From the NCBI RefSeq assembly GCF_001447785.1, contig NW_015172097.1, positions 47,296 to 111,295 on the forward strand: a DNA stretch of 64,000 bases, given 5' to 3'. Origin of the DNA: Gekko japonicus. Lineage: Eukaryota. The position numbers are program-made. Positions 9,001 to 11,766 of this stretch are shown one piece after another; position 1 is the first letter of the stretch; the number at the start of each line of letters is the position of its first letter.

Positions 9001-11766
9001 ACTAGTAATCCCCAATACGTATTATTAGGACATAGAGTCTTGTGAAACAGACCGTGCTTGCCCTGGGAGCAGCTACAAAGAGTGTAATGTATTGAAATGA
9101 TTACATGAATCACCTCATAGGACTCCCATGTTAAGCTTCAAGCCAGACCAGGGCTCCTCTGAGCGAACTTCCTATTGGTCGCTTCGTAACAGCGACCAAT
9201 CAGATCGATACCATTCCCTAGGAGGGAAAGACTCCCATTGGTCTTTATTCTAGCAATCTCATTGGTTGTTATTTGTAAATAGGCGTGGCTACATTAGCCC
9301 GGTTATGTTTAAAAGGAGCATAAGCTCCCACTGTTTTCTGTTCTGGTTTCTTACTGAGTTAGTGCTTGCTCGTTACTTCCAATAAAGCTGAATCACTTGC
9401 TGAATCACTGTACGAGTCCTTTGTTAGCGCGATCTAACAATTGGCGACGAAGGTGGGATGTTAGAGCAGGTAGGCAGCCCTGCGGACATCCACACTTCGG
9501 ACTCGGAAGAAAGCGGGCAGAGCACAGCAGCCGATCCGGCCGAAAGGCCCGGTACTGTCCCCGAGTCAGGGCAGAACCCTGTGTGCGGGGCTGAAATCCC
9601 AGTCGAGTCTGTGCCTGATCCAGGCTGTAGTGAACCCCACTCTGACCCACAACCTTGTCTGCCCGTGGAGCCTGCACCGCTCCGCAGGTCCCAGCGTTCG
9701 CGGCAAATGCCGACTTATCTGAAGGACTATGAGTGTAAATACTGTTGGAATAACTGATGTACAAAGGTTGATTGCATGTATGTAAATAATAAAACAATTG
9801 GGATGATGGCTTAACTTAGGGGGGAGGGAGTGTAATGTATTGAAATGATTACATGAATCACCTCATAGGACTCCCATGTTAAGCTTCAAGCCAGACCAGG
9901 GCTCCTCTGAGCGAACTTCCTATTGGTCGCTTCGTAACAGCGACCAATCAGATCGATACCATTCCCTAGGAGGGAAAGACTCCCATTGGTCTTTATTCTA
10001 GCAATCTCATTGGTTGTTATTTGTAAATAGGCGTGGCTACATTAGCCCGGTTATGTTTAAAAGGAGCATAAGCTCCCACTGTTTTCTGTTCTGGTTTCTT
10101 ACTGAGTTAGTGCTTGCTCGTTACTTCCAATAAAGCTGAATCACTTGCTGAATCACTGTACGAGTCCTTTGTTAGCGCGATCTAACAAAGAGGGTGGAAG
10201 TAATATTTACTTATAAAAACATATCAATGGCCTTTGCAGTTCAAAGTAGTTTAACAAGTTCTCCCCCCACCCCCAACTACACATGCATGCATAAAAAACT
10301 GTCTTTGCTGCAAATGCACGATTACGTTCCAAAAGAAAATGTTAATCGAACATAAACAATGAAGTTTATTATGCACTCGTAATATGCAATGTTGTAAGTG
10401 CTCTGGAAATAAAGTTGTATTTGTACCTGGGTATTCATTTGAATGCAGTCTAAATTAACCACACAGTATATGCTCTTTAAATAAATTCAGGCACCTTCCA
10501 TGACAGTTGCATCTCCAAACAGAACTAGATTTTCATGACAATATGTTAGCACAGCATTCAAAATAAGCTGTTGTCAGAAAACGAATTTAAAAATTTGCAC
10601 TGAGATAATCCCTACAAGTACAATTTTCCCATCACGCTGACAGAAAGTGCTTTTGCCCAACTCAGATGTAGCACATGGCTTTTAAGCACATAAATGTTTT
10701 CCAAAGAAATGCACCTTCAGTGAGAAGACTATTTTTATGTAACAATGTTAATATTTTCATCTGATGCTATGGATGATTATGCATTTACCACAAAGTGCAG
10801 TTTTGGAACTACATATTTATATGGATCCTTTCCACCCAATTTATTCTTCATGTTGAACATCTCCCTTTAATACAGATCTACATGGAACAGCTGCTCTTTT
10901 CCCTCACTCATGAGAGAATCTCAAAACAAATTATCTGTGTTGTTCTTCCAAAGAAAGGGGCAGGAGCATTATCAAGTGACAACATTTACAAGTCCTTAGT
11001 TGTGTTTGGAACCTGAACACCCTAATTCTTTTCATAACATATTTGTTTTCACAAAAACCTATCAAAAACACAAATTTAGGGGGGGAATGTAATAAACCTA
11101 TGTGCATTGCTGGAGACTTTAGTACTAATAGCATTGGAGCCCCAATTCACATGATCAAATTTAAGGGTCCAAACTCCACCTGATGCTCTTGCAGTGGCAC
11201 CAGCAATCAACCCAGGACCCAAACTGCCAGCACAACCCTGTACCTGCGTTCATGCACTAATTGGTTCATTTGGCAAATGAAGCACAGGCAAATGGTGCTG
11301 GTTCTGTTGCCATGGCACAAGCCGCATTGGACTCTGAAGCAGTTGAAGGGGACTTACAGAGTCAATCTGTTAGGGATGCAGCTCATTTGAACACAAAAAT
11401 TAAAGAAGAAGACATTGCCAAGATCTGAGAATCATGCAAGATCTAGCATATTCCTCCAAAGTACTGAGGGTGCACTATTCTGGGCACCAATGGGCTTGAG
11501 CGCTTGCACTTCAGATGTGGTAGCACCATCATCATGCTCTTAGAAAAGGAGGGAGAACTTTGTAAAGACATCACCTGATCATTTTTAAGGTCCATCATTA
11601 TTAGGGATTTTTCAAGAGGAAAACAAAGATATGTTGCATAAAAATCGAATAGGCTCCCTTCCCTCTAACTCAAAATTTGAAATAGGACGGGGCAACAAGC
11701 CTTTGTGTTGAATCCTGACACAGGCAGTGTGTAATGAGGCAGTGATGAAGCAGATAACTTTGGCTG

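What the first reader, a model, noticed from the sequence alone, without database searches (positions are those of the whole stretch)
9083..10187. Very young 1.1-kb TRIM-like retrotransposon with identical LTRs and all cis-signals intact
Seen: I could find no difference between the two 357-bp LTRs. The 5-bp TSD, PBS and PPT are intact, and the 391-bp interior keeps only the pol C-terminal tail. Known: LTRs are identical at insertion, so this one is recent. Inference: either an actively trans-mobilised miniature Gypsy family (TRIMs are much better described in plants than in amniotes) or a one-off deletion. It may be polymorphic between individuals.
Basis: partly seen in the sequence, partly recalled or inferred. 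Interest (0 to 1): 0.7.

Follow-up and report, generated by a model that had tools for sequence, protein, structure and literature searches.

The report
Young gutted LTR retrotransposon in a lizard
This is a real, recently inserted 1.1-kb LTR retrotransposon copy that has lost all of its own genes; it is an ordinary kind of mobile-DNA relic, and whether it belongs to a spreading miniature family could not be tested here.

Summary
The structure is real. Two 357-bp LTRs (9083-9439, 9831-10187) have 0 differences. They end in TG..CA and are flanked by a 5-bp AAGAG duplication. A 13-nt purine tract abuts the 3' LTR. An 18-nt primer-binding site starts 2 nt after the 5' LTR and is the exact reverse complement of the 3' end of a tRNA-Ser(GCT) fragment printed in PMC11551137. 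CpG observed/expected is 0.68 in the element, 0.15-0.22 in the flanks, which independently supports youth.

The 391-bp interior has no recognisable gag or pol. Pfam gave 0 hits, and the protein searches gave nothing meaningful. So "pol C-terminal tail" and "Gypsy" are unverified. The 99-codon ORF is weak evidence for coding.

At 1105 bp it exceeds the <1000-bp TRIM definition I read. It is better called a small non-autonomous LTR element. The host looks like a lepidosaur.

A second, unrelated LTR element at window 1-~620 (minus strand) carries the identical 18-mer.

Family versus one-off deletion stays open, because no eukaryotic genome collection was available. This is a new member of a known kind, of modest interest.

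The parts
9078..9082 (+). 5' copy of the 5-bp target-site duplication (AAGAG)
   Evidence: the same 5-mer lies directly before the 5' LTR and directly after the 3' LTR.
9083..9439 (+). 5' LTR, 357 bp, TG..CA termini. It holds CCAAT/ATTGG boxes at 9174-9178, 9196-9200, 9237-9241 and 9261-9265; the first two sit in the arms of a short palindrome. A TATA-like TTTAAAA lies at 9308-9314 and AATAAA at 9381-9386.
   Evidence: The U3/R/U5 split is inferred from the motif positions and was not measured.
9442..9459 (+). Primer-binding site, 18 nt, after a 2-nt spacer (9440-9441). It is complementary to the 3' end (with CCA) of tRNA-Ser(GCT).
   Evidence: PMC11551137, one passage read; reverse complement printed. 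The identical 18-mer sits next to an unrelated LTR at window 231..214 (E 0.002). In both elements complementarity ends at nt 18.
9440..9830 (+). Interior, 391 bp, GC 0.55. No recognisable gag, protease, reverse transcriptase, RNase H or integrase.
9458..9757 (+). 99-codon ORF (frame open from 9428). It is acidic and Ser/Pro-rich with a basic stretch near its end. No homologue was found, so coding status is doubtful.
   Evidence: 66 of 2000 shuffles reach the same open length.
9818..9830 (+). Polypurine tract, 13 nt, abutting the 3' LTR
9831..10187 (+). 3' LTR, 357 bp, identical to the 5' LTR
10188..10192 (+). 3' copy of the target-site duplication (AAGAG)
1..628 (-). Element B, the 5' part of a second, unrelated LTR element that runs off the window edge. 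Its LTR-like stretch ends at about 236; the upstream bound of about 610-628 is uncertain. It holds CCAAT at 410-406 and 377-373, TATATA at 344-339 and AATAAA at 297-292. The identical 18-nt PBS lies at 231-214. A GC-rich leader follows, and an ATG at 96 opens 32 codons up to the edge.
   Evidence: It is not part of element A but bears on it, because both use the same primer tRNA.

Best explanation
Window 9083-10187 is a genuine, recently integrated copy of a small non-autonomous LTR retroelement.

Shown:
- Two identical LTRs with TG..CA ends.
- A 5-bp target duplication.
- An 18-nt PBS perfectly complementary to tRNA-Ser(GCT).
- A polypurine tract.
- No recognisable protein domain.

Inferred mechanism:
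- RNA polymerase II starts downstream of the TATA-like box in the 5' LTR, which has CCAAT boxes upstream of it.
- The transcript ends after the AATAAA of the 3' LTR.
- The RNA is packaged and reverse-transcribed by Gag and Pol of an autonomous element of the same genome.
- tRNA-Ser(GCT) primes the minus strand and the polypurine tract primes the plus strand. This regenerates two identical LTRs.
- The helper's integrase inserts the DNA with a 5-bp staggered cut.

I think it more likely than not that it integrated already in its short form. That could be as a member of a miniature family or as a first-generation deletion made during reverse transcription. The alternative is that it was cut down after insertion.

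Its superfamily is undetermined.
For: - LTR identity is 357 of 357.
- The LTR start is found only at the two LTRs, and in 0 of 100 shuffles.
- TSD, termini and PPT are present.
- The PBS matches 18 of 18 to the 3' end of a tRNA-Ser(GCT) fragment. The same 18-mer lies beside a second, unalignable LTR. In both elements the match stops at nt 18, the usual PBS length (established knowledge, recalled).
- TATA-like, CCAAT and AATAAA motifs are laid out as in a pol II LTR.
- CpG observed/expected is 0.68 in the element. It is 0.22 and 0.15 in the 2-kb flanks and 0.25 in the whole window.
- No protein domain was found: Pfam 0 hits for 3 interior translations and for all six interior ORFs of at least 75 codons (proteins 16-21).
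- For 'integrated short' (inference): what survives is almost exactly the minimal cis set. That is expected if the short RNA had to pass through reverse transcription. It is not expected of a random genomic deletion, and the commonest post-insertion loss (LTR-LTR recombination) would leave a solo LTR.
Against: - No second copy of the LTR or the interior exists in the 64-kb window. No genome-wide count was possible, so a family is not shown.
- No autonomous partner with this LTR was seen. Pfam on 144 ORFs of the window found only LINE-type RVT_1 pieces.
- Identical LTRs could be kept alike by gene conversion.
- With 0 differences in 357 bp, the 95% upper bound on LTR divergence is only about 0.84% (my arithmetic, 3.0/357). 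So 'young' may still mean up to a few million years at typical vertebrate neutral rates (rates recalled, not from a call).
- The predicted leader fold is only mildly better than shuffles: z -1.91, with 8 of 200 shuffles folding at least as well.
Confidence: 0.6

Rival explanations
1. One-off deletion in place. A full-length autonomous element inserted here recently, and a later genomic deletion removed nearly all of its interior. This copy never moved as a short element.
For: - It is a single copy in the window.
- No homologous ORF was found in the protein collections. A large family in sequenced genomes might have left such ORFs, but this is weak evidence.
Against: - Inference: a random deletion would have to begin within about 20-100 nt after the PBS and end a few hundred nt before the PPT.
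- LTR-LTR recombination to a solo LTR is the usual fate of such copies.
- Neither point was tested here.
Confidence: 0.22
2. Assembly artefact. A full-length element is present in the animal, and the assembler collapsed its interior.
For: - The assembly has gaps or masked runs (4 N runs).
- It has other very young direct repeats: a 2.1-kb tandem duplication at 97.4% identity, and a 290-nt perfect repeat 569 nt apart.
Against: - A collapse between the identical LTRs would give a solo LTR, not LTR-interior-LTR.
- No repeat inside the 391-bp interior could seed a collapse (one search lists none within 9440-9830).
- There is no N at or near the element.
Confidence: 0.06
3. Not a retroelement. The A-B-A arrangement is a local partial tandem duplication.
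For: A 290-nt perfect repeat with 569-nt spacing at 60496-61354 shows that such non-LTR structures occur in this window.
Against: - TG..CA termini, the 5-bp flanking duplication, the 18/18 tRNA-Ser(GCT) PBS and the abutting purine tract all coincide.
- The 60.5-kb repeat has none of these.
Confidence: 0.01
4. The classification differs from the first reader's. The element derives from a BEL/Pao, Copia or endogenous-retrovirus lineage rather than Ty3/Gypsy.
For: - No tool result ties it to Gypsy.
- A 5-bp duplication and TG..CA ends are shared by several superfamilies (recalled).
Against: - The basic stretch near the ORF's end recalls tails that I remember from integrase C-termini of metazoan Gypsy-like and BEL-like pol proteins. 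This is memory only and no tool returned such a hit.
- A pol-type tail lying about 60 nt before the PPT, with no env-sized space, would argue against a retrovirus with env. That holds only if the tail reading is right.
Confidence: 0.4

Closest known systems
TRIMs (terminal-repeat retrotransposons in miniature) and SMARTs, as defined in PMC10886601 (section 3 read)
   Same: Two LTRs, with a PBS and PPT at the two ends of a short interior. It has no proteins for its own mobilisation and is presumed to depend on an autonomous LTR element.
   Different: - It is 1105 bp, above the <1000-bp limit given there.
- Its 357-bp LTRs make up 65% of the element.
- Family status (many dispersed copies) is not shown.
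- That paper lists TRIMs outside plants in hymenopterans, cestodes and bivalves. Section 13 adds Helenus in coelacanth, sturgeon/paddlefish and ostariophysan fishes. No amniote is named in the two sections I read; its Table S1 was not visible.
TRIMp3 elements (Cassandra, Helenus, Ajax): TRIMs with a tRNA- or 5S-derived pol III promoter in the LTR (PMC10886601, abstract and sections 3 and 13)
   Same: Size range: the longest Helenus is 1263 bp with 321-bp LTRs. Both have a PBS and PPT.
   Different: There is no small-RNA-like sequence in this LTR. The Rfam E-value search of 9000-10300 gave 0 matches up to E = 1, and ARAGORN found no tRNA there. This LTR instead has TATA-like, CCAAT and AATAAA motifs.
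Non-autonomous LTR elements of the mouse: ETn (with MusD), MaLR (with MERV-L), VL30 (with MLV), IAP 1-delta-1, and the small ERV-beta4-derived group (PMC6466679, passages)
   Same: These are amniote LTR elements that keep LTRs and terminal internal sequence, lack coding capacity and use proteins supplied in trans. Some are young and polymorphic.
   Different: Those are retrovirus-derived and mostly several kb long. No retroviral homology was found here, and the host is a lepidosaur rather than a mammal.
Element B in the same window (1-~628, minus strand)
   Same: It has the identical 18-nt tRNA-Ser(GCT) PBS. Its LTR has a similar layout (CCAAT boxes, TATA, AATAAA about 55 nt before the LTR end), and it is CpG-rich.
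   Different: - The LTR sequences are not alignable: 242 invariant of 674 columns, including the PBS.
- The spacer is 4 nt against 2 nt.
- B goes on into a leader and an ATG-initiated ORF, so it may be a coding element.
- Beyond the PBS, only a 13-nt block is shared. That score is reached by 20 of 1000 shuffles, or by 6 of 1000 when only the first 150 nt are used.

Membership tests
LTR retrotransposon (structural definition) | Two direct long terminal repeats with TG..CA ends | tested here: met
   357/357 identical, starting TG and ending CA.
LTR retrotransposon (structural definition) | Target-site duplication of 4-6 bp | tested here: met
   AAGAG lies on both sides. The chance of a given 5-mer match is about 1 in 1000 (arithmetic).
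LTR retrotransposon (structural definition) | PBS complementary to a tRNA 3' end just after the 5' LTR | tested here: met
   18/18 against the 3' end of a mouse tRNA-Ser(GCT) fragment (PMC11551137 passage). That the lizard tRNA is the same is inferred.
LTR retrotransposon (structural definition) | Polypurine tract just before the 3' LTR | tested here: met
   A 13-nt purine run at 9818-9830.
TRIM | Total length below 1000 bp (PMC10886601, section 3) | tested here: not met
   1105 bp.
TRIM | Encodes no protein needed for mobilisation | tested here: met
   Pfam found 0 families for the interior translations. The protein searches were empty or meaningless.
TRIM | A family of dispersed copies with different target duplications | not testable with these tools
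   There is no other copy in the window. The only open genome collection is bacterial/archaeal, and it gave 0 hits for the LTR-end/PBS junction.
TRIMp3 (Cassandra/Helenus/Ajax) | tRNA- or 5S rRNA-derived sequence inside the LTR | tested here: not met
   Rfam E-value search gave 0 matches. ARAGORN found none in the element.
Ty3/Gypsy | Sequence homology of internal region to Gypsy gag/pol (or to an autonomous Gypsy element sharing the LTR) | tested here: inconclusive
   No homology was found. A tail motif of about 20 residues is too short to reach significance in libraries of this size. The autonomous partner could not be sought.
Endogenous-retrovirus-derived non-autonomous elements (ETn/MaLR type) | Traces of retroviral gag/pol/env or LTR similarity to an ERV | tested here: inconclusive
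   No protein homology. No ERV nucleotide library was available.

The most novel reading that the evidence does not exclude
The element is one copy of a currently active miniature LTR family in a squamate, primed by tRNA-Ser(GCT). It would ride on a co-resident autonomous lineage that uses the same primer. Element B at the window start would then be a representative of that helper pool. This would be a TRIM-like system in an amniote outside the retrovirus-derived cases known from mammals, with insertions polymorphic between individuals.
Probability: 0.25. Interest if true: 0.45.

Novelty: new member of a known kind. Interest (0 to 1): 0.25.

Why it matters
If it belongs to an active family, it would give a compact marker system of presence/absence insertions for lizard population genetics. 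It would also be a non-mammalian amniote example of a parasite-of-a-parasite LTR element.

As it stands it is a well-preserved textbook example. The 18-nt PBS, shared exactly by two unrelated LTR elements 9 kb apart, shows that tRNA-Ser(GCT) is a favoured primer in this genome. Because 3' tRNA fragments are reported to target LTR elements through their PBS (abstracts of PMC7472051 and of bioRxiv 10.1101/2025.05.12.650695, seen in the listing only), the shared PBS could also be a shared point of host control. That last step is speculation.

Tried and rejected
- **Homology of the 99-aa ORF.** Pfam gave nothing. phmmer over 1.84 billion representatives gave one hit, P0001, a 309-aa low-complexity tandem-repeat protein that I rejected as meaningless. 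The word-indexed searches found nothing among longer proteins or among proteins of similar length.
- **An autonomous partner in the window.** Pfam on 144 stop-to-stop ORFs of at least 75 codons without X found only LINE-type RVT_1 and four sub-threshold chance-level hits.
- **Diverged LTR or interior copies in the window.** blastn with word size 7 found none beyond the element itself and the 18-mer PBS at 231..214.
- **The LTR-end/PBS junction in genome contigs.** 0 hits, as expected for a prokaryotic collection.
- **Small-RNA-derived LTR (TRIMp3).** Rejected.
- **Homology between A and B beyond the PBS.** Only a 13-nt block of marginal significance.
- **Leader RNA structure.** Unremarkable, z -1.91.
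- **Literature on TRIMs in squamates or amniotes.** Searches (listings only) turned up no such description. One search was badly framed, because it did not require the TRIM phrase. Repbase-type libraries were not searchable here, so this is no claim that such elements are unrecorded.
- **PMC6050309.** Searched for LTR statements (passages) and gave nothing useful.

Full report
**1. Checking the observation**

- The two LTRs (9083-9439 and 9831-10187) are 357 bp each and differ at 0 positions.
- The perfect repeat extends 3 nt to the left and 1 nt to the right. On the left, the end of the purine tract and the end of the target duplication both read GAG. On the right, both copies are followed by an A.
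- With the TG..CA rule the boundaries given are the natural ones. They leave a 5-bp direct repeat, AAGAG, at 9078-9082 and 10188-10192.
- The first 32 LTR bases occur, with up to 3 mismatches, only at the two LTR starts: 2 of 2 matches, and 0 in 100 shuffles.
- A sensitive blastn of the LTR and the interior against the whole window found no further copy.

**2. Cis signals**

- A 13-nt purine run (9818-9830) abuts the 3' LTR.
- After a 2-nt spacer, an 18-mer beginning TGG follows the 5' LTR (9442-9459).
- A full-text search with this string and its reverse complement found one paper, PMC11551137. I read one passage of it. That passage lists a mouse 3' tRNA fragment named tRF3b-SerGCT-1, whose last 18 nt are the exact reverse complement of the 18-mer. 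So the PBS is complementary to the CCA-bearing 3' end of tRNA-Ser(GCT).
- That the host's own tRNA has the same end is inferred from the conservation of vertebrate tRNAs.
- The same 18-mer occurs once more in the window, on the minus strand at 231..214 (E 0.002). There it again lies a few nt after the end of an LTR-like sequence.
- In both elements complementarity to the tRNA ends at nt 18. This is the canonical PBS length (recalled).
- Two unrelated LTRs followed by the identical 18-mer is strong internal evidence that this is a working primer site and not a chance string.

**3. The LTR**

- It carries ATTGG/CCAAT boxes at 9174, 9196, 9237 and 9261. The first two lie in the arms of a short palindrome.
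- It has a TATA-like TTTAAAA at 9308-9314 and a single AATAAA at 9381-9386.
- From these positions I infer U3 of roughly 255 nt, R of roughly 60-70 nt and U5 of roughly 30-40 nt. None of this was measured.
- No small-RNA-like sequence is present. The Rfam E-value search of 9000-10300 gave 0 matches, and ARAGORN found only a tRNA-like gene far away at 26295-26365.

**4. The interior**

It is 391 bp long with GC 0.55. It contains a 99-codon ORF (9458-9757), and the frame is open from 9428. The evidence that this ORF is a pol tail is nil:

- Pfam found 0 families.
- phmmer against 1.84 billion representatives gave one hit at E 3e-5, a low-complexity repeat protein.
- The word-indexed searches gave nothing at E<=1, among 111 longer candidates and 2 candidates of similar length.

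The collection does hold lizard transposon proteins, so the blank is not merely a gap in taxon coverage. A disordered tail with a motif of about 20 residues would, however, be undetectable at this library size.

The ORF itself is weak evidence for coding:

- 66 of 2000 dinucleotide shuffles of the interior have an equally long open stretch.
- Six stop-free stretches of at least 75 codons, on both strands, overlap the interior within 9358-9862, because the stretch is GC-rich.

From memory, a basic stretch like the one near the ORF's end occurs at the C-terminus of integrases of metazoan Gypsy-like and BEL-like elements. That is a lead and not a result.

In terms of genes, none of gag, protease, reverse transcriptase, RNase H or integrase is recognisable. 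With no parent to compare, the number and kind of lesions cannot be counted beyond 'at least one large internal loss'.

**5. Age**

- Zero differences in 357 bp put the 95% upper bound on LTR divergence at about 0.84% (my arithmetic). Converting that to years needs a neutral rate I did not obtain from any call. At 1-2e-9 per site per year (recalled order of magnitude), the bound is about 2-4 million years.
- Independently, the element's CpG observed/expected is 0.68. It is 0.22 and 0.15 in the 2-kb flanks and 0.25 for the window. The element has therefore not yet undergone the CpG decay of its surroundings.
- Together these support 'young'. They do not show 'active now'.

**6. Host and surroundings**

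- The LINE reverse-transcriptase ORF at 30962-31657 has its 17 best hits in lepidosaurs (Podarcis, Anolis, Hemicordylus, Rhineura, Sphenodon, Varanus) at 46-56% identity. After those come mostly fishes, with one more Varanus hit at rank 80.
- I take the window for a lepidosaur, probably a lizard, and not for human.
- The element sits in AT-rich, CpG-poor DNA.
- No repeat family in the window covers its immediate flanks.
- Pfam on 144 ORFs found no LTR-element protein anywhere in the window.

**7. Element B**

The window's first ~620 bases, read on the minus strand, are the 5' part of another LTR element.

- It has an LTR-like stretch with CCAAT boxes, TATATA and AATAAA, then ..ACA, a 4-nt spacer and the identical PBS.
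- A GC-rich leader follows (GC 0.66, CpG o/e 1.12), and an ATG at 96 opens 32 codons to the window edge.
- Its LTR does not align with that of A.
- Apart from the PBS, only a 13-nt block at a similar distance downstream is shared. That score is reached by 20 of 1000 shuffles, or by 6 of 1000 when restricted to the first 150 nt.
- B is therefore not A's parent. It does show that a possibly coding lineage using the same primer lives in this genome.

**8. Mechanism and rivals**

The best reading is a non-autonomous LTR retroelement. It would be transcribed from its own LTR and then copied and inserted by proteins of another element.

I favour integration in the short form (0.6). What remains is almost exactly the minimal cis set, which is what passage through reverse transcription selects for. 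A random later deletion would rarely spare just that, and the common later event gives a solo LTR.

- In-situ deletion (0.22) cannot be excluded without reads and other genomes.
- Assembly collapse (0.06) cannot be excluded either.
- A plain tandem duplication is contradicted by the four coinciding signals. The 290-nt perfect repeat at 60496-61354, which lacks all of them, serves as a contrast.

**9. Comparison with what is known**

- By the definition in PMC10886601 (section 3 read), TRIMs are under 1000 bp. This element is 1105 bp, so I do not file it as a TRIM. It works like one.
- It is not a TRIMp3.
- Non-autonomous LTR elements dependent on helpers are long known in amniotes: ETn, MaLR, VL30, IAP 1-delta-1 and an ERV-beta4-derived group (PMC6466679, passages).
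- TRIM- and LARD-annotated contigs are reported in a caecilian (PMC8498967, passages).
- My searches (listings only) found no paper on TRIM-like elements in squamates. Curated repeat libraries could not be searched.

**10. What stayed unchecked**

- Genome-wide copy number, the autonomous partner, polymorphism and read support were not checked.
- Genome contigs holds only bacteria and archaea, and gave 0 hits.
- The Atlas was unavailable.

**Verdict**

This is a real, young, structurally complete but gene-less LTR element: a new member of a known kind, of modest interest.

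Noticed in passing
window 1-~628, minus strand: 5' part of a second LTR element (element B). It has the identical 18-nt tRNA-Ser(GCT) PBS at 231..214, an unrelated LTR, a CpG-rich leader and an ATG-initiated ORF that runs off the window edge.
   Followed up: partly
window 12287-14404 and 14410-16524: A 2.1-kb tandem duplication, 97.4% identical over 2140 aligned columns (9 mismatches, 11 gap openings). A SINE-like repeat of about 86 nt (also at 7089-7174) sits at the copy boundaries (families D12/D13). This may point to unequal recombination or to an assembly duplication.
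   Followed up: partly
window 60496-60785 and 61065-61354: A 290-nt perfect direct repeat with 569-nt spacing. It has no TG..CA ends, and no target duplication, PBS or PPT was seen in the sequence read. It looks like a young partial tandem duplication rather than an LTR element.
   Followed up: partly
window 26295-26365, plus strand: A tRNA-like gene called tRNA-Ala(GGC) by ARAGORN and scoring 41.6 bits with Rfam tRNA. It lies in a GC-rich stretch. Whether it is a true gene, a pseudogene or a SINE head was not examined.
   Followed up: no
window 22952-24361, plus strand: A long ORF interrupted by two masked N runs. The visible parts look transposase-like to me, from memory only. The masked parts were left alone and the ORF was not searched.
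   Followed up: no
window 29700-32020 (plus) and 38786-41434 (minus): LINE remnants. RVT_1 scores E 3.7e-12 at 30962-32020 and weakly (E 0.0064) at 38786-39034. Several further ORFs of 75-227 stop-free codons nearby have no Pfam hit. The best relatives of the first are lepidosaur reverse transcriptases.
   Followed up: partly
window 20043-20755: A tandem array of units of about 143 nt, 4-5 copies at 60-88% identity (families D1, D2, D11). It looks like a small satellite or a tandemly repeated SINE-like unit.
   Followed up: no
window 34425-34691, minus strand: A sub-threshold Pfam hit to Dopey_N (E 0.0083, 15.8 bits against a cut-off of 26.4). It is possibly a host exon and possibly chance.
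   Followed up: no
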